Positions 8,978 to 59,208 of a stretch of DNA of 64,000 nt are shown here, piece after piece; the stretch's first letter is position 1, and the number at the start of each line of letters is the position of its first letter. Below the pieces are notes generated by a model. That model was given only the letters and a program-made list of their open reading frames with translations. It made no database searches and was not told the origin of the DNA. The translations under genes were made by a program, and so were the position numbers. This DNA is from Girardia tigrina (Eukaryota): contig MQRK01235832.1 in NCBI GenBank assembly GCA_001938485.1, forward strand, positions 50,472-114,471, written 5' to 3'.

Positions 8978-10966
8978 TACGACTGGCCGTATGGGCGTGA
9001 TGGCCGCCCCTCTATTCGAAAATCCGCCATCCTAACTCGGTTGGTGGAACGATTCACCTTTTCACTTTTTTCCTTTTTCACTCAGGAACGAGTCTTCGAG
9101 CGAGAGGATTGCTGCCCGTTCACCGACGGCCACGGAGAGCCGGGCTATCCTTTCAAATCAATGTGGGAACAGACGGAAGCTCCGCGCTCGAGGCGTGCTT
9201 CCACCAACGTCGACTCAATAACGGGGTCATCGCCTCATGTTGCCGCGGTCGCCGCTCGACGCCTCATGTCGTTGTCCAGATCAACCGCGCCCTCGAACAT
9301 TTCATTGGTGTCAGAAGTGGGATCAATTTATTATATACATATTTATAATACGGTTAAATTTAAAAAAAATGTAAAACACCTAAAAAAAGAACTTTGTTTA
9401 AATATTCAAAAATTAAAAAAGCACATTTTTTTATAATAAATTTTATGGACTCCAATTTTGATGAGATTTGCGCTGCAAACAGTTTTTCTAACATTATCAA
9501 TTTAAAATGATGAGTAAAAGTTAAATTAAAATTAATAGATGTTAAAACATTCTTGTTGTGAAAATAGAACTTATAAATAGTTAGGAGGGCATGATGTTGC
9601 TTAGAACGTAAAGATAGGCAAAAGAAAGACAAAAGAAAGAAATTGTTATGGAAGAGAGAAACCATTTGATTTCAGCAATATCTGATCTGGATGGGAAGAT
9701 GCTACAAACAGTTCTCGAACCAAAACTATATAAACTTCAAAATTAGGATTTTACTTTCAGTATGATTGAAACACGACGCAGAAAATTAATTAATTGAAAC
9801 TCTGAAGGAGTTTTATTTTCTTTTTCGATGATATTGAATAACATCAGTCTTTACTTGTTCGAGAATCGGATTGGGTTGGGATGTTGATTTCCATTCCTTT
9901 CTTTTTTTCTTGAAGACCGTGACCAGTTTATCATCTCGACTAGACGCTGGAGAAACTTTCTTATAGTAAACTGTTAAATGCTAGAGGCAGGGAATACCTT
10001 TTGCAATTGATTGCAACACAACCGAAGCAAGATATGAATTAATAAATAAATTAAGAAATTCGGCATTTTTGATCGCGGGAGCTGGGGACCATCGATTGGT
10101 TTTCGGCAATCTTTGACTTTAAAACTCATCATATCAATTTGTTTTTAGTAAACTTAGAAAGTACGGAGAAACAATATTAAATGTTCTTCCTCACCAGATT
10201 TCATTCACTTTATTAGATTCATTAATGTGATTTTTATGAACTAGTTTGTTTTACTATTTTTGTTTTGCATAGCTTTGTACATTTTAGTTTATTGTTCCAT
10301 AATACAGTTAGACACAAAATTATGATTTTTTAAGACGTTCAAATAAACAAAATTAATTATACTTTTTTGTAACGCAAAATACTGTATTAATGTTAGAACT
10401 GTAAGTTTATGTTTTGATTTGGAAATTTGTATATTTGAATAAACGAAATAAAAGTTTTGGTTTTAGAAAAGCTTTTTCATTCTTCGAATTTTGAATTATA
10501 ATGGAAGCTCGTGACTTATCCATAACATATTTCGTTTGGAATTTGATAAAAAGTGGAAGGTGGGATTTCACAATTCATCGGCTCAACGGATCGGCGTCGG
10601 AAGGCCTGGTTACGGGCTGCGGTTGTCTCGGAGAGAAAGATCACTTGGAAAAATAAAGGGGAGCAATAATGTTTCTTTTGCACAATTCCCCGAGGTAGGT
10701 ACGGTTGATCGCGATGGCTGAGAGTCGCAACGGCAAAGCAATGTCACTCTACGACCAAAATTCCTTTGATTTTTTTCAGGAATTAATAAAATAATCTACA
10801 CATAAATTAGCTGTTTTTGAATAAAAATAAAGGATGTAATTTTGCAAAATGCCTCTATAAAACATAGACTTACGAAAATTAGAGATTAATGAAGATTCAT
10901 ATAAATATTTAAAAAATGACGACAATGAATTTTTAAAAGTCAAAAAATTTTCATCAAAATATATTG

Positions 10967-11001
10967 TGATTAATTTCGACGGATCAACCGTCATCATCAG
11001 A
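10967..11001 (-). ncRNA. Minimal hammerhead ribozyme motif (sense to afadin pre-mRNA)
   Basis: Exact reverse complement of 11216-11250. Confidence 0.8.
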
Positions 11002-11215
11002 CTGAATTAACAATGATATACTCGCGTTTATATATCAAAGCAATGTTAATGTAATCATTATGCCATTTAAATCATGAAAATACTTTCAATAAAGTTGAAG
11101 AGGATGGTGTTTGTACATTGATTTTAGGATTAAAAGATTTGATCAACAATGCTTCACACATCACCCTCTCCCATTGCTTTGATATATAAACGCGAGTATA
11201 TCATTGTTAATTCAG

Positions 11216-11250
11216 TCTGATGATGACGGTTGATCCGTCGAAATTAATCA
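11216..11250 (+). ncRNA. Minimal hammerhead ribozyme motif
   Basis: CTGATGA-T-GACGG-TTGAT-CCGTC-GAAA-TTAATC, with palindromic stem III. Confidence 0.8.
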
Positions 11251-11413
11251 CAATATATTTTGACGAAAATTTTTTGATTAATTGAAGATGTTCAAATTTT
11301 CATTACGAGACTCCTTATATCATGTAATGTTTTAAATGTATATTTAATAAAAAATATGAAAGTAATAATTTACTTATGAAAATATTTTGATTAAACAGTT
11401 TAATAACACTCAC

Positions 11414-11635
11414 CCTGTTAATGCAAGTGAGTCGTACAATATCAACTACCATCAAATGTAGAACATAGGCCGAAGCTAGTTTGAATTTGATTTGCGACGG
11501 TTTTATGTCGAGGATGATCGAATCAAGTAGCATATCCTCCTTACTTTTGAAATAGGTGATTTGCACTGGCAAATGTCGAGACAGATGTGAATCAAGATCA
11601 GATATAATTACAGCATCATCATCCTCTCGATCATT
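11414..11635 (-). CDS. AFDN: Afadin exon 7, pre-DIL conserved block
   Basis: LPVQITYFKSKEDMLLDSII...KFKLASAYVLHL resembles afadin LPASIEFRESSEDSFLSAII...HFKLSPTYVLYM. TTTAG acceptor, GTGAGT donor. Confidence 0.87.
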
Positions 11636-12783
11636 CTAAAAAATCAAATCAAATAAATTTTAATAAAAAAATGTTCTTGTATGTTATTGTAAATATCAAT
11701 AGAAATTAATTAAAGAAACATAAATTTCATATGATATAAATGAACAATAATGCCAAAATGTTACGTGTTGACATTTCAACGAAAGACAACACTAGATTAT
11801 CTTGAGACAAAACGATGTCTGTTTTTTTTGTATTAAAAATAATTTTTTGGAAAATATTTACTTTTTTATTATTTTTAATTATTGATAAAGTGTTTATTAT
11901 GAGGAGGTAATTAATTTTTGGTTCGCTGATCAAAATTTAAATAGTTTTAAAAATGAGTATTTTGAATTAAAATCAAATTGAAAATCTTAAAAATAATTAA
12001 GTATTTTAGATTTAAATTTAAAAATATTCTTAATTATAAAAAACATTCATTAAAAATATTAATTAAAAAACATTCTTTATTAAAAATTTTATTAATGTTT
12101 GAAAAATGTATTTTCTAATTTGGAATTAATTCAATGATATGATTAAAAAAATTAATATTTAAAAAATAAAAAATTGAATATTAAATATAATGTATTTTCA
12201 AAATTTCTAAAATAAAAAATATAAATAATGGTTTTTAAAAATATAAGATTTTAGTTGAAAAACGAAATTATAAAAACAGCATAAAAAGATTAAAGTAAAA
12301 AACAAATTTAAACATTAAATATTTTTTTAAAAACAATTTTTTAATATGTAAAATCATTTTGATAAATACTTTTGTTTAAAAATTTAACAAAGTTGAATGT
12401 TGTTTTTCATTTGATTAAAATTATAAATGGATAAAAATTATTTGAAAATAGAGATCAGCGGATTAATTATTAATTAGGAAAATAGTTGATAAATTTGTTT
12501 GAAAGTTGTTTTATAATAAAGATACAATTTGAGTAAAATGAATTCTGATATTGACGTTGCAAATACTTCTCACATTTATAATTTTTTTCTTATATATTTT
12601 TATAATTTCATTTTAATTGGAAAATTGATTGCAAAAATTAGAAAATAGATCGAAACTTCTATACATCGACTCGAAACACTGGTACTCTCTCTGTCTGATA
12701 TCGGCATACATTCACGAACAATCACATCGGTAACGATAATAATAAAAATTATAAAAAAATGAATTAATTTAAATTTTAAATTA

Positions 12784-17865: not shown

Positions 17866-18017
17866 ATTTATTTAGCTCAAAAGCATTAGAAATGGCTTTG
17901 GTTGGTTGACCTTGCCGAATTCTACTTGCAATATATTCTACAATATATATATTGTAAGTAGAATTCAGCAAGGTCAACCAACCAAAGTCATTTCTAATGC
18001 TTTTGAGCTGAATAAAT
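17866..18017. repeat. Near-perfect hairpin with ~70-bp arms
   Basis: ATTTATTTAGCTCAAAAGCATTAGAAATGG... pairs with ...CATTTCTAATGCTTTTGAGCTGAATAAAT, with 4 mismatches. Confidence 0.85.
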
Positions 18018-18028
18018 TTCATTAGTTC

Positions 18029-18390
18029 TGTGAGGAATGTTTTGAATTGTGTATTGATATTTGTGCATGTAGAATGTTGATTCGGATTGTACCTCTCCTA
18101 CACAGATGGATGATTGATATTTTCTTTGATTCCTACTAATTAAAAATAATTTAATTTAATTTTAAAGTAAAAAGATTTAAAATAATTTTTGAATGTATTA
18201 TTTATTTTTTTAATGTAATTTAATTTTAACCAATTAGATTCTTTATAATTTAATAATTTTTATTAACAGATTTTCATTTATTGAAAATAATTAGTTTGAA
18301 CTCAGAAAGAATTGATCAAGAGAGATGTCAAATAGTGAATGCGCTTGTAATATTAATAAATGTTGTAAACCTCATATTGATGTTGTTAAT
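18029..18390 (+). mobile_element. Solo LTR of the Gypsy element at 37501-38900
   Basis: Starts TGTGAGGAAT and is closely similar (reverse complement) to 37505-37924. Confidence 0.85.
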
Positions 18391-19140
18391 AAGTTCAAAG
18401 AAATATTACGATTCTTAAGAAAATCAGCGAAACAGATGCAAAGCATAAGGAGGGTGATTGAAGATCTGAACTTGATGACAATAAAAAAACACCAAATAAA
18501 AGCCTAGGTGGGTGAAAATTGACTTCTTAGTCTGAAGATAAATTGATTGAAAAGATTAATGATGTTTTTGGATTGAATGTGTCGCAAAGTACCATTGGCC
18601 GTAGTCTCACTGTAGTTCCTGCTCCACGATATGCGTATGCTGAGAAATTAAGGACTGATAATGCTAACAAACTAATGTTCTTAAATGAAGTTTGTTTTGC
18701 AGTGTCTAAACGAATAAAAAAGGAAGGTCTCTAATAGGTACTTTTACATTTGTTTTTGTTTCTGTTCTTGCTTCAATAAAAATTCATGACAAGGCATTAC
18801 AAAGTGAAGATTTAAAAGCCGTATTTGTTGAACTTTAAAATATTCATCAACAAAAGAAGAATAAATTATTATTCTGGATTAAAAGATGTAATCATGCGTC
18901 TTAATTTGGTATTAGAATACTTCGTCCTATATTCCACTTATTCAAAGCCAAAGGAGAATTGTTTCTCTAAATGGATAAAACTATGTTATGCACAATTGAG
19001 CTAAAAACGAAGAAGAATTTTAAAGTTTCATTGAAGAAGGTTTTGGTTTAATTGATACATTTAATTGTGATGGATATTTTAAGAAGATACTTAGATTTGT
19101 CTTGAAAGCTGAAAAGAGCGAAACAATTCTTGAATAAATG
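18391..19140 (+). mobile_element. Highly decayed DD34E (Gambol-like) transposase
   Basis: FGLNVSQSTIGRSL, FLNEVCFAVS and ENCFSKW remnants similar to the 12784-14209 element. Confidence 0.6.
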
Positions 19141-30049: not shown

Positions 30050-30252
30050 CCTCTTTTTTGTAACTTAAAAGCATTGTTGATAAGATCATGTGATCCAAAA
30101 ACTAATATTCAAACACCACTCTCAACTAATTTGTTAAGAGTTTTCGATTAGACTTACGTAAGTGATTGCACAATCATTCATTTCTTATATAAAAGCAATA
30201 AAGAAGAACATAATCAGTGATCTGATGATGACGGTTAGACCGTCGAAATATA
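30050..30252 (+). mobile_element. Penelope-like 3' end with a hammerhead interrupted by a DNA transposon
   Basis: LIRSCDPKTNIQTPLSTNLLRVFD*, then TGAT-CTGATGA-T-GACGG-TTAGA-CCGTC-GAAA-TATA. The motif resumes as TT-ATCA at 31601-31606. Confidence 0.8.
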
Positions 30253-31598
30253 CAGGGTGGCCCAGCGGGTGCGGACTACGGGCAAAAAAAGAAAAAAACC
30301 CTGAATTATAATCAGTATAGTTTCTTCTTTTCTATAGTACACGTGTTTTTATTCTATCTTTAGTCTTCTATTTTTTTAAAAAATGTCGACATATTCAATC
30401 GAAGACCAAATTTTCATGGTAAAAACCTATTACTGGAACCAATGCAACTATAACAAGACGATGACAGCGATGAGGAAGAAGTTCAGACCAAATGGACCAT
30501 AAAATTCAACAGTTTAAAGGTGAGAAAAAGTGATATTCTTGATTTTCAATAGTTTTTTGATTCCACTAACGTAGAAAAGTTCGAAAGACTAGGTTCCGTT
30601 AAAGACGACAAAAATGGAATTGCATCAGCAAAATTTACGATCCGGACATACGATAATTCCAAGAGAGTACAAGAATATTACAAGGCAAATACAAGAGCAT
30701 CGCAAAGAAGAGCGTCGCAAGAACTAGGAATCAGTCATTCATCAATTCAGCGAATCATGAAATTGGAGCTTCATCTGTTTTCGTACACGATTCAGTTTCA
30801 TCAACGGGTTTCGCAGATTGCTACCGAGAAAAGATTGGAATTTTCGAATACGATGATAACAATGATAGAACACGAGGAAATTGATGTAAATAAGATTTGG
30901 TTCACCGATGCAGCCCACTTTCAACTGTCTGGATACGTCAACAAGCAAAATTATCAATTTTTGGGAACTTAAAATCCACATATCGCTGAAATGTCACCAT
31001 TACATCCTGCACGAGTAACGGTTTGGTGCGCTATCAGCGCAGAAATGGTAATTGGGCCCGTTTTCATAGAAGGAACAGTGATATCAAACACCTACACGAA
31101 TCTTCTACAAAATGAGTTTATTCCAATGGTTTCTGGACTTGGTATAATGGAAAATTTCGGGTTCATGCAAGTTGAAGCAAGGCCACATCGAATAAGTCAA
31201 GTTTTTGATGTCTTAAGTGTACATTTCGACACACGAATCATTGGATTGGACTCAGAAAAGCATACTGGAAAGGGAATCGATTGGCCACCATAATCCCAGG
31301 ACAAGAACCCCTGTGATTACTTTTTGTGGGGATATCTCAAGTACAACATCCACAGAAGCCCTTTAAAATCAAAAGACGACTTTAAAGCAGTTATTGAGAA
31401 TCAAATCAAGTCCATAAAATCTGATGTACTTGAAATAGTTGTTCAAAACCTTGAAAGTCGCTTTAGGCTTTGTGTAACTTCGCATGGATCACATTTCGAA
31501 AATTTAATTTCTTAAATTATTAAATAAAATGTCTTTTTCAAACGTTTGATACCAATTTTGGCGATTTTAAATTAGTCCGTACCCGGTGGACCACCCTG
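30253..31598 (+). mobile_element. rosa-like (DD41D-related) Tc1/mariner transposon, full-length but inactivated
   Basis: 26-bp TIRs CAGGGTGG(C/T)CCA(G/C)CGGGT(G/A)CGGACTA with TA TSD on both sides. Motifs WFTDAAHFQLSGYVNKQN, VTVWCAIS, FMQxxARPH and WPP*SQDKNPCDYFLWG. Confidence 0.92.
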
Positions 31599-37500: not shown

Positions 37501-38900
37501 TGATATTATTAACAACATCAATATGAGGTTTACAACATTTATTTATATTACAAGCGCATTCACTATTTGACATCTCTCTTGATCTATATATTTCTGAGCT
37601 CAAACTAATTATTTTCAATAAATGAAAATCTGTTAATAAAAATTATTAATTATAAAGAATCTAATTTGTTGAAATTAAATCGAAACATTTTTTTAAAAAA
37701 AAGAACATATTAAATTAATATATTAAAATTTTAAATTACATTAAAAAATAAATAATACATTCAAAAATTATTTTAAATATTTTTTACTTTACAATTAAAG
37801 TAAATTATTTTTAATTAGTAAGAATCAAAGAAAATATCAATCATCCATCTGTGTAGGAGAGGCTCAATCCGAATCAACATTCTACATGCACAATATCAAT
37901 ACACAATTCAAAAGATTCCTCATATACCCCTCGGTTTAAATGGCTTTAGCCATTCAACATTTCTAATCAAAGTTTTACCATCTTCGAGCTGTAACTCGTA
38001 ACTCCTTTCGTGATTTCGTTTCAACACAATTGCCGGACCCATGTAACGGTCATCTTGTTTTGATATATTTTCTTTTTTTATCAACACTGTCTCCAATTTC
38101 AAAAACTCTTCTTGTTTCCACATTTTGTTCGACATTAACTTGGTTTCCGTTAGTTTCTTTATTGTTCTTCCACCAATGTCTAAATCGTCTCCCAAATATT
38201 ATTTCAGCCGGTGAAACACCTGTCATAGCTTGAACTGTACTATTCAACATAAATTCTATTTCCGACAAAACTTCTGTCCAATCTCTGTGGTTTCCGTCCT
38301 TCATTCTAATATTTATAGCATCTCTGATTGTTCGAAATTGTCTTTCCACTATCCCATTTGTATTATGATGATATGGACTTGAATAGATTATCTCTACTTT
38401 GAACCTTTTAATTGTATCTTTGAACAAAGCCGATTCAAATTTTTTTCCTCTATCAACATGGATTTCTTTTGGAGGTCCAAATTTCCATATCCATGTTTCC
38501 AATATCACTCTACGAACTGTTTTTTTCATCTTGCAAGTACGTATTGATATTCGTTTATGTTTCTTTTGAATGGTCCACAGAAGTCCATGTATATTTTCTG
38601 GAAAGGTTCATCTACCGACAATTTTATATGTTTTTCTTTCGTTTTCGCAGTTAATGTCTTTCTTTTTTGACAATTTAAACAACTTTGGACTACTTATTTA
38701 ATGAAATTCCTCATATTTTCCATGTCAAAATCTTCTCGAAGATAGTTATAGACTTTTTTACTATCAGCATGGCATAACAGCTTGTGCATCTCTTCAATGA
38801 AATTTGTTCGTTTTTCTTTTGGGATCAAGTATTTATTGTCCTGAGTTGCCACGCTGTCATTTTATAGTGTCCATTTCCTCGTTTTCCCTTTTCTGATATC
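37501..38900 (-). mobile_element. Gypsy LTR retrotransposon 3' part: integrase, PPT and 3' LTR (37501-37924)
   Basis: HHCC remnant (MHKLLCHA...CLNC), FGPPKEIHVDRG, SSPYHHNTNGIVERQFRTI and GPY/F-like RYMGP. PPT GAGGGGTA abuts LTR T(A)TGAGGAAT...ATATCA. Confidence 0.88.
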
Positions 38901-57300: not shown

Positions 57301-58164
57301 TAATTATTATTAAAACATTTATTATCATTGAAATTTGAGTCATCCCCAAGATGATTCACCATTTGTCATCATTCTAATTAGTGCTATTTCTGAATTTTTT
57401 AAATCCTTTACCGAACAAATAAAAATGATGTTAAAATTGACTAAAAATTTAAAAAAATACCTTACTACATATGTAAATTAGGGCATTTAAACAAAACATA
57501 AAATTTTTAGTAAATATTTTTAATGATTTTTAATAAATAATAACTTTTAGTATTAAAATGGTCAGAATTTACGAGAAATTTATAATATACCAAAGAAATA
57601 CAAAAAAAAGAATTTCATTACAAAAGTGAATAATTTATTAAAATTGCACCGCGATACTTATAATACTATTATTTATTACTTTTAGTAATAAAATTTTAAG
57701 TAAATAATTTGTTATTTTATATTACAATAGGAATATTTAAATCCAAATTAAAAGGCGCAATAAAAATCAAAAACGAATCCTCGCGACCTAATTTGGGGTC
57801 GCGACCCACAGTTTAATATACGCTGATTTAGAGTATAAAAGGGAAATACTGTCGGATAGTTAGGTACGCAGGGTTCGTGTTAGTTAGTCTTCTTTTATTC
57901 CGTTTTTAAATCAATAAAAAAGCACATTGTAAAGTTGTTTTAAGTCAATAGATTTTAAAAGGAAAAGATAAACCGACGAGAAATAAATAGGTTTAAAGTG
58001 AGGTCTAAAGATCTGAATAAGACAAGAATGAATAATCTAACAATTATTTATATTATTAAACAATCTTTTCATTTGCTGCTAAAAGGAAAAGCACGATTGG
58101 CTGTTGGAAGAAAACTGAATTTAGAATCTGTTGAACATCAAATATTTCTGTTTTAAAATACATT

Positions 58165-59208
58165 ATGAGTAACACGACTGAGTTTTTTAACAATTCCACA
58201 TTGAGTAAAAATGAGAGAATAATCTACCAGATTCTTCTGTTCCTAGGAGCTCCGATTATCCTCTCCGGAATGATATCGAGTGTTCTAAGTACGATTATGT
58301 TTTTTAGGGATTCATTTACTCCTCGTTCGACAAAATTCATATTACAAACTTTATCAATAACTGATTTTCTATTTTTGATTTCTGTCGTTTTTTACATCGA
58401 AATGAAAATTATCTACGTCCTCTATCCGCACTTGACGTATGTCTTAAAACCAATCAGGGAAAAGTTTATATTCAGTGATATTCTTGTGATGCTCGTTAAC
58501 ATTTCCGAATTGTTCAGAAATTGGTTGACTGTCTTAATCGGCATTGAACGTTATTTAGTGACCTGTCACCCCTTGAAAGTGGCCAAGTACCAAGACTATA
58601 ATAAGTCACACCGTGCCGTTATAGCGATTGGTATATTTACAGTTTTGCTTCGACTGCCAATGCTTATTAGGCGCTTTACATACTACTCGGAAAATAGTCG
58701 AATGATGGAGATAAGTAAAAAATCCTTGGTTGCTCATCATATTATCGAAGCTATTTTTCAGTCCTTTCTACCAGTAGCAATTCTTTTCTTTTGCTTTGTC
58801 AAAATAACAAAAGCACTAAAAAAGTCGAAAGCCCTTCGACTGTTTCATCGAAGAAACGCCGTTTCGATTAAAAGGAAAATGCATATCACAAGAATGCTTA
58901 TAATAATAATAATCCTCTTTTCTCTTTGCAACACTCCCCACATAACGTTCGTGATAATCAAGCAAACGAAATTCTCAGATCTCACAATCATGTCAATGAT
59001 ATGTTGGTTTTTTAGTATTCTTTATTCTTCGAGCAACTTTTTCGTTTACATTATTTACATGAAACGGTATCGATATATTATTGCCAAAATGTTTGAAAAC
59101 GAATTATGTTGTTCTTGTGATACAATGGAATCTTCGGAGAATAGATACCAACTTGTGAGTAGTTACCACGAAAGGACGATTAAAACTTGTACATCAACAT
59201 TCCATTAA
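58165..59208 (+). CDS. Intronless rhodopsin-class GPCR, FMRFamide/peptide-receptor-like (347 aa)
   Basis: N-terminal N-glycosylation sites, seven hydrophobic segments, LSITD in TM2, ERYLVTCHPLK (DRY-like), FSLCNTP in TM6 and SNFFVY in TM7. Uninterrupted ORF. Confidence 0.92.
   Translation: MSNTTEFFNNSTLSKNERIIYQILLFLGAPIILSGMISSVLSTIMFFRDSFTPRSTKFILQTLSITDFLFLISVVFYIEMKIIYVLYPHLTYVLKPIREKFIFSDILVMLVNISELFRNWLTVLIGIERYLVTCHPLKVAKYQDYNKSHRAVIAIGIFTVLLRLPMLIRRFTYYSENSRMMEISKKSLVAHHIIEAIFQSFLPVAILFFCFVKITKALKKSKALRLFHRRNAVSIKRKMHITRMLIIIIILFSLCNTPHITFVIIKQTKFSDLTIMSMICWFFSILYSSSNFFVYIIYMKRYRYIIAKMFENELCCSCDTMESSENRYQLVSSYHERTIKTCTSTFH

What the first reader, a model, noticed from the sequence alone, without database searches (positions are those of the whole stretch)
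10940..11277. Fold-back cassette: ribozyme plus its own antisense, 137 nt downstream of afadin exon 7
The 106-bp arms with a single mismatch indicate a young insertion. On the afadin (minus) strand the antisense arm is transcribed first and the sense hammerhead second, so the pre-mRNA should fold into a duplex that masks the ribozyme. All three intact hammerheads that are sense to afadin sit in such fold-backs, whereas the unpaired intact ones (23703, 30218) are antisense to the gene and the unpaired sense copy (20831) is degenerate. Inference: selection tolerates intronic sense ribozymes only when self-silenced. The cassette could also be a tiny non-autonomous unit or a dsRNA/siRNA source.
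Basis: partly seen in the sequence, partly recalled or inferred. Interest (0 to 1): 0.7.

Follow-up and report, generated by a model that had tools for sequence, protein, structure and literature searches.

The report
Fold-back Penelope retrotransposon stub in intron
This hairpin-shaped insert in an afadin intron is the broken-off end of a very common jumping gene, pasted twice head-to-head in a layout already described, and its small self-cutting RNA motif is likely inert with or without the second copy, so it is ordinary.

Summary
The 106-bp inverted repeat with a hammerhead in each arm is real. It is the 3' end of a high-copy Penelope-like element (PLE): the loop encodes the last 33 residues of a PLE ORF (97% identical), a ~43-bp tail lies at one end only, and a probable 11-12-bp target duplication flanks it. 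This layout, and opposite-strand hammerhead pairs 100-700 bp apart, are published (PMC8557442, PMC3846280, PMC4209133). The selection idea is not supported. Both 'intact unpaired' controls are damaged: 23707 lost G10.1, and 30222 is split by a mariner-like element. Every fold-back holds one hammerhead per strand. In 51 dynein/myosin gene intervals, unpaired intact hammerheads were 7 sense versus 5 antisense. The motif is the minimal dimer type, for which a published monomer showed no cleavage. The junction is unique in the genome, so this is no replicating mini-unit. One residual hint: 7 of 15 fold-backs but 0 of 15 unpaired sense copies lie within 400 nt of a donor, though the mirror control (0 of 14) matches. 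The scan noted such stubs before, in this and other genomes.

The parts
10897..11277 (-). Whole insertion: 5'-truncated Penelope-like element with an inverted copy of its 3' end in front; element sense = afadin sense
11172..11277 (+). Inverted 106-nt copy of the element's 3' end (no tail); antisense on the afadin pre-mRNA; 100% identical to family copy L022
11215..11251 (+). Minimal type I hammerhead in the inverted arm (core 11217-11223, predicted cut after C at 11249)
   Evidence: sequence
11172..11173 (.). Inversion junction with 2-nt microhomology; the 30-mer across it occurs once in the genome at up to 2 mismatches
11072..11173 (-). Last 33 codons and stop of the PLE ORF (C-terminus of the GIY-YIG-type endonuclease); 97% identical to residues 463-495 of P0154
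10940..11045 (-). Body arm: 3' end repeat (pLTR part) of the element, one mismatch (10953) to the other arm
10966..11002 (-). Minimal type I hammerhead sense to afadin: core CUGAUGA 11000-10994, bulged U, 5-bp stem II with G10.1-C11.1, GAAA, palindromic UUAA loop on a 1-bp helix III, predicted cut after C at 10968, 2-bp proximal stem I
10897..10939 (-). About 41-43-bp 'tail', present at this end only and shared with other family copies
10886..10896 (.). Probable target-site duplication, left copy (11 of 12 nt match, one 1-nt indel)
   Evidence: 0.4% of 20,000 random intron pairs reach this score
11278..11289 (.). Probable target-site duplication, right copy
11414..11635 (-). Upstream afadin exon (open frame; weak homology 11572-11453; donor GT at 11413-11412); 5' boundary approximate

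Best explanation
The cassette is a short, 5'-truncated insertion of an abundant Penelope-like retrotransposon whose inverted second end copy was likely made during insertion itself, and whose minimal hammerhead is likely inactive in the afadin pre-mRNA whether or not the antisense arm masks it. Shown: PLE identity, one-sided tail, unique junction with 2-nt microhomology, frequent fold-backs of variable length in the family, and no orientation bias among unpaired intronic hammerheads in the sample. Inferred: the element's protein nicked both strands about 11-12 bp apart and primed two cDNAs near the RNA's 3' end, one from the tail-side start site (276-nt body) and one from the inner start site (106-nt arm); repair joined them head-to-head. 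Masking of the ribozyme is a geometric by-product, not a selected trait.
For: Loop = PLE ORF end. Longer family copies carry an RT (RVT_1, E 2.8e-08) and a YIGET endonuclease motif; relatives are RT proteins up to about 850 aa, 7 of the 120 listed with GIY-YIG PF01541. 808 exact copies of the 35-nt hammerhead. Family copies share the 3' end and differ at the 5' end. Body ends fall at +41 to +45 in 15 of 27 loci and +5 to +16 in 8 of 27; 7 of 8 complete fold-backs have the tail on one end only. Fold-backs covering the hammerhead occur in 6 of 25 loci not picked for that shape. Orientation test outside afadin: unpaired intact 7 sense: 5 antisense (p 0.77), strict 4: 4, gap-free 3: 2, damaged 7: 6, plus 12 fold-backs; a 10% sense share is rejected (P 5e-5). 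Without the antisense arm the active monomer fold is still not predicted (P helix III 0.0, stem I 0.001). Papers: inverted copy plus one-sided tail (PMC8557442; PMC3846280); opposite-strand pairs and no monomer cleavage (PMC4209133); both strands cut and extended, two RT start sites, no hammerhead cleavage without protein (PMC11167929); splicing survives intron cleavage by a hammerhead (as summarised in PMC2995048).
Against: The sample is small (95% interval for the sense share 0.28-0.85), so a mild bias is not excluded. 4 of the 7 unpaired intact sense copies have an assembly gap within 1 kb on their 5' side that could hide an arm, and 2 of the 3 gap-free ones had no family neighbour in the sample. 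Fold-backs were commoner inside mapped genes (12 of 37 insertions) than outside (4 of 31; p 0.085; with afadin 15 of 44, p 0.058). 7 of 15 fold-backs but 0 of 15 unpaired sense copies lie within 400 nt of a donor (p 0.006, post hoc). Within afadin itself no intact unpaired sense copy was found. The test genes are nearly all dyneins. No cleavage or RNA data were obtained. The dual-priming step rests on another species' element in vitro.
Confidence: 0.88

Rival explanations
1. Donor-proximal filter: the fold-back arises during insertion, but sense hammerheads in the first ~0.5-1 kb of an intron can cut the nascent RNA (helped by PLE protein or a second copy in trans), so near donors only masked copies persist.
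For: Within 400 nt of a donor: 7 of 15 fold-backs, 0 of 15 unpaired sense, 5 of 14 unpaired antisense; fold-backs near the donor only versus the acceptor only were 5: 1 at 400 nt and 7: 1 at 1,000 nt. Fast intronic ribozymes can abort splicing (Fong 2009 as summarised in PMC2995048). The anole PLE hammerhead is protein-assisted.
Against: The hammerhead sits at the element's 3' end, so a sense copy's motif is pushed away from the donor by geometry. The mirror control is the same: 0 of 14 antisense near an acceptor, 4 of 15 sense near an acceptor. 5: 1 is not significant (p 0.22). The pattern was found post hoc in a gapped assembly.
Confidence: 0.07
2. One reading: selection tolerates intronic sense hammerheads only when an antisense arm silences them.
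For: Holds for afadin alone: 3 intact sense copies all paired, 1 intact unpaired copy antisense. Slight excess of fold-backs inside genes (p 0.06-0.09).
Against: 7 intact unpaired sense copies in dynein introns, 3 with no gap within 1 kb, two of them 277 nt apart in the same orientation. Both cited controls are damaged. In 2 of 3 afadin fold-backs the inversion adds the sense copy.
Confidence: 0.02
3. Same identity but a different route: the inverted arm came from self-priming on an antisense template (Arkhipova et al. 2013) or from a later local rearrangement.
For: Some family junctions overlap by 12-14 nt (L003, L007), as in the palindromic junctions of PMC3846280.
Against: This junction overlaps by only 2 nt, the two outer ends match the family's two preferred 3' ends, and one target duplication brackets both arms.
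Confidence: 0.15
4. A tiny non-autonomous fold-back unit that replicates as such.
For: It contains two end repeats; pLTRs alone can mobilise what lies between them (PMC3846280). L002 and L003 are fold-backs of similar size.
Against: The junction 30-mer occurs once in 1.43 Gb; L002 and L003 have different junctions and 82-85% identity.
Confidence: 0.02

Closest known systems
EN+ Penelope-like elements with inverted pLTR, one-sided tail and TSD (Pen2a_Av, Arkhipova et al. 2013, PMC3846280; scheme in Craig et al. 2021, PMC8557442; passages read)
   Same: 5'-truncated body, adjacent inverted end copy, 30-40-bp-class tail on one end, short TSD, microhomology junction, hammerhead in the end repeat, ATG of the ORF inside the repeat.
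   Different: Only the last 276 nt survive; the TSD has a 1-nt indel; no full-length parent was retrieved.
Minimal hammerheads (min-HHR) of metazoan PLEs (Cervera and De la Pena 2014, PMC4209133; parts 1-2 of 4 read)
   Same: Type I topology, unpaired base before stem II, G10.1-C11.1, palindromic loop on an unstable helix III (38 of 45 intact motifs here); pairs on opposite strands 100-700 bp apart were reported in Schistosoma.
   Different: Stem II is 5 bp rather than 7-8, and proximal stem I is 2 bp, nearer the D. virilis-type variant. Activity of this motif was not measured.
PAc, Poseidon element of the green anole (Frangieh et al. 2024, PMC11167929; parts 1-2 of 4 read)
   Same: RT plus C-terminal GIY-YIG; two preferred 3' ends that bracket a tail; ORF start overlapping the hammerhead.
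   Different: Tail and start-site sequences differ; the parts read show no head-to-head product, so dual priming here is inferred.
Non-LTR retrozymes (bioRxiv 10.64898/2026.07.22.740005; part 1 of 5 and passages read)
   Same: Short PLE-related units with type I hammerheads; mildly depleted from introns in Xenopus.
   Different: Retrozymes are head-to-tail tandems that replicate as units; this is a single head-to-head insertion holding ORF sequence. The words orientation and antisense do not occur in that text.

Membership tests
EN+ Penelope-like element (Penelope/Poseidon type) | Single ORF with RT followed by a C-terminal GIY-YIG endonuclease | tested here: met
   Family copies L013, L020, L022 carry RT then YIGET; loop matches the C-terminus of P0154. 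Pfam did not score the endonuclease piece itself; it aligns to PF01541-bearing relatives at E 1e-10 to 1e-17.
EN+ Penelope-like element (Penelope/Poseidon type) | 5'-truncated copies with a shared 3' end and an inverted adjacent copy | tested here: met
EN+ Penelope-like element (Penelope/Poseidon type) | 30-40-bp tail at one end only | tested here: met
   41-43 bp here; 7 of 8 complete fold-backs
EN+ Penelope-like element (Penelope/Poseidon type) | Short target-site duplication | tested here: inconclusive
   11 of 12 nt with one indel, p about 0.004; no empty allele among the 15 of 26 joints shown
EN+ Penelope-like element (Penelope/Poseidon type) | No Zn-finger-like linker between RT and EN (separates it from Neptune/Nematis); clade by RT phylogeny | tested here: inconclusive
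   No C-x2-5-C-x-x-C in P0154; no tree against named clades was built
Minimal type I hammerhead of PLEs | CUGANGA, bulged base, G10.1-C11.1 stem II, GAAA, palindromic loop III, UH, stem I | tested here: met
   Rfam's hammerhead models did not detect it at E <= 1
Minimal type I hammerhead of PLEs | Self-cleavage (weak, as a dimer or with protein) | not testable with these tools
   folding predicts no monomer fold
Non-LTR retrozyme or other non-autonomous unit | Unit copied whole to several places or in head-to-tail tandems | tested here: not met
   junction unique; arrangement head-to-head

The most novel reading that the evidence does not exclude
Sense-oriented Penelope hammerheads are purged from the first 0.5-1 kb of host introns unless an inverted arm masks them, which would be genomic evidence that these minimal ribozymes cut host pre-mRNA in vivo.
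Probability: 0.07. Interest if true: 0.55.

Novelty: new member of a known kind. Interest (0 to 1): 0.12.

Why it matters
As it stands it matters little: one of very many stubs of a known retroelement in a published layout. The useful result is negative: a first strand-bias count of intronic PLE hammerheads in this genome shows none, in line with these motifs being near-inert as single copies. Two full-text searches touching orientation of intronic hammerheads listed no such count, but only titles and abstract starts were seen for most hits and the library lacks most subscription papers. If the donor-proximal depletion were real, it would bear on the open question of whether PLE hammerheads cleave in vivo.

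Tried and rejected
Rfam scan of the window found no hammerhead; the motifs came from pattern and profile scans. A blastn against phages found nothing. A genome-wide count of antisense-sense pairs was not obtained, so fold-back rates rest on 30 family loci and 1.7 Mb of fetched DNA. The kinase family search gave almost only single-exon matches and was not used. NCBIfam gave only sub-threshold RT matches. Assembled contigs of runs X1, X2, X9 and raw reads of X21 were laid on 10200-12000: the cassette has about four orders of magnitude more depth than its flanks, X1 spans the left junction, no empty-site joint was among the 15 of 26 joints shown, and X21 did not cover the locus; so polymorphism and A-to-I editing are undecided. 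No RNA run was laid across the intron, so splicing and exon number stay unchecked. In one search a 32-nt match between two separate insertions was scored as an arm and a 3.1-kb pair was missed; both were corrected (8: 5 became 7: 5). 34 of 127 profile hits (E > 0.1) were dropped before counting; reversed sequence gave 0 hits at that cut-off. Arm homogenisation by gene conversion was considered (loop 97.6% to nearest copy, arms 99-100%) and set aside because the arms share no private change against L022. A literature search on exon tethering found nothing. Supplements of the papers were not read.

Full report
Observation. Each arm holds a hammerhead core, at 11000 on the minus strand and 11217 on the plus strand. 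Afadin runs on the minus strand from about 36925 to beyond the window's left end. An exon with weak homology (E 0.007) ends at 11414 with a GTGAGT donor, 137 positions from the cassette. The label 'exon 7' fits a count of homology and ORF blocks but was not checked against a transcript. Folding predicts that the arms pair completely and that the sense ribozyme's stem II does not form.

Identity. The loop encodes WERVMCEALL...LLKVFS-stop, 97% identical to the last 33 residues of an RT-bearing protein, P0154. A search of the genome with the loop and one arm returned 814 candidates, 40 scored, and the 35-nt ribozyme occurs 808 times exactly. The 30 fetched loci share one 3' end and stop at different 5' points. 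The longer ones carry an RT followed by a YIGET endonuclease motif, and their relatives include GIY-YIG-annotated proteins. The junction has 2 nt of microhomology and occurs once in the genome. An 11-of-12-nt repeat brackets the whole, a score reached by 0.4% of random intron pairs.

Fold-backs are a family habit. Leaving out the query, three loci ranked for their similar shape and one duplicate, 6 of 25 loci have an inverted arm over the ribozyme, with arm lengths from about 90 to 380 nt. Of 8 complete fold-backs, 7 have the tail at one end only, on either the body or the inverted arm; body ends cluster at +41 to +45 (15 of 27; the reference itself ended at +45) and +5 to +16 (8 of 27). Published accounts describe this: an inverted 5'-truncated copy and a one-sided 30-40-bp tail (PMC8557442, passages), inverted pLTR with tail and 8-10-bp TSD (PMC3846280, passages), and minimal hammerhead pairs 100-700 bp apart on opposite strands (PMC4209133, parts 1-2 of 4). 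The anole PLE protein cuts and extends both strands and starts reverse transcription at two sites that bracket the tail (PMC11167929, parts 1-2 of 4). I infer that two cDNAs primed from the two nicks were joined head-to-head; self-priming on an antisense template is the published alternative.

The ribozyme. It has the minimal PLE form: bulged U, G10.1-C11.1, a single A-U pair closing a palindromic UUAA loop, and a 2-bp proximal stem I. In PMC4209133 a single motif of this class showed no detectable cleavage and dimers little; the anole motif did not cleave without protein. With the antisense arm removed in silico the monomer fold is still not predicted (helix III 0.0, stem I 0.001), though such folding ignores tertiary contacts. 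Splicing is reported to survive intron cleavage by a hammerhead but not by a fast HDV ribozyme (summary in PMC2995048, passages; the primary papers were not read).

Any fold-back has one hammerhead on each strand, so three paired sense copies come with three paired antisense copies. In the 26k and 27k fold-backs the element body is on the plus strand, antisense to afadin, so the inversion supplied the sense copy. The two 'intact unpaired' motifs are damaged: 23707 has T at position 10.1, and 30222 is separated from its cleavage site by a 1,346-bp mariner-like element (the mariner label rests on the TA duplication, terminal repeats and recalled transposase features). In the window all three unpaired copies are therefore damaged, whichever way they face.

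Orientation test. I located dynein and myosin exons in the genome, fetched 64 contig pieces (1,697,371 bases, 145,673 N, including the afadin contig) and mapped exons with 40 full-length dyneins. This gave 52 gene intervals (47 dynein, 4 myosin, afadin; several dynein intervals may be parts of one gene) spanning 1,123,840 bases. A profile from 37 motifs gave 127 hits, of which 93 at E <= 0.1 were kept; reversed sequence gave none. 'Intact' is my definition: exact core and GAAA, paired base of stem II, UH, and 2 of 3 stem I pairs. Outside afadin there were 12 fold-backs and 25 unpaired motifs: 14 sense and 11 antisense; intact 7 and 5 (p 0.77, sense share 0.28-0.85); strict 4 and 4; with no gap within 1 kb 3 and 2. 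A 10% sense share is rejected (P 5e-5) and 25% is unlikely (P 0.014). Caveats: 4 of the 7 sense copies have a nearby gap, 2 of the 3 gap-free ones could not be extended into a family, and the genes are nearly all dyneins.

Results against my reading. Fold-backs were 12 of 37 insertions inside non-afadin genes and 4 of 31 outside mapped genes (p 0.085); 'outside' includes contig ends where an arm can be cut off. Within 400 nt of a donor lay 7 of 15 fold-backs, 0 of 15 unpaired sense and 5 of 14 unpaired antisense motifs. This is what a donor-proximal filter would give, but the mirror is the same (0 of 14 antisense and 4 of 15 sense near an acceptor). The simpler account is that the motif sits at the element's 3' end and is recovered best when that end faces an exon in a gapped assembly; many of the first 100 exact matches listed likewise sit near contig starts with the element's 5' side facing the break. 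The donor-only versus acceptor-only excess of fold-backs (5: 1, p 0.22; 7: 1 at 1 kb) remains unexplained and untested.

Verdict. A real, young, ordinary PLE stub. Masking of the ribozyme is predicted but is best read as a by-product of how these elements insert. Earlier notes of this scan reach the same filing for other stubs here and in other genomes; they are unchecked and were used only as leads.

Noticed in passing
window 30253-31598: A mariner-like element inserted into the TA of a hammerhead's palindromic loop III (motif at 30222), splitting the ribozyme from its cleavage site.
   Followed up: yes
29 unpaired intronic motifs: The hammerhead (3') end of an element faces a nearby exon far more often than the 5' end does: 9 of 29 within 400 nt versus 0 of 29. 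Probably an assembly or retention effect; not resolved.
   Followed up: partly
G000:C200681:49369 and 49646: Two intact hammerheads of different families, 277 nt apart, both sense in a dynein intron and both with a CATG loop III; they could in principle form a mixed dimer.
   Followed up: no
window 10998-10897 (minus strand): An ATG inside the ribozyme core opens a frame (MMTVDPSKLITIYF...) that runs through the arm into the tail, as for the ORF start in published pLTRs.
   Followed up: partly
L006, L007, L011, L024, L028: Family copies with internal inversions at the 5' end that do not duplicate the 3' end, resembling twin-priming products (term recalled from LINE-1 work).
   Followed up: no
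window 17866-18017: A 71-bp-arm hairpin (94%, 10-nt loop) in an afadin intron with no hammerhead; only sub-threshold Rfam hits.
   Followed up: no
window 18061-18397 and 37501-37893: An inverted pair of related repeats 19 kb apart, the right one next to an integrase-like ORF (38050-38607; label recalled).
   Followed up: no
window 58135-59208 (+): Intronless rhodopsin-family GPCR ORF (7tm_1, E 3e-13).
   Followed up: no
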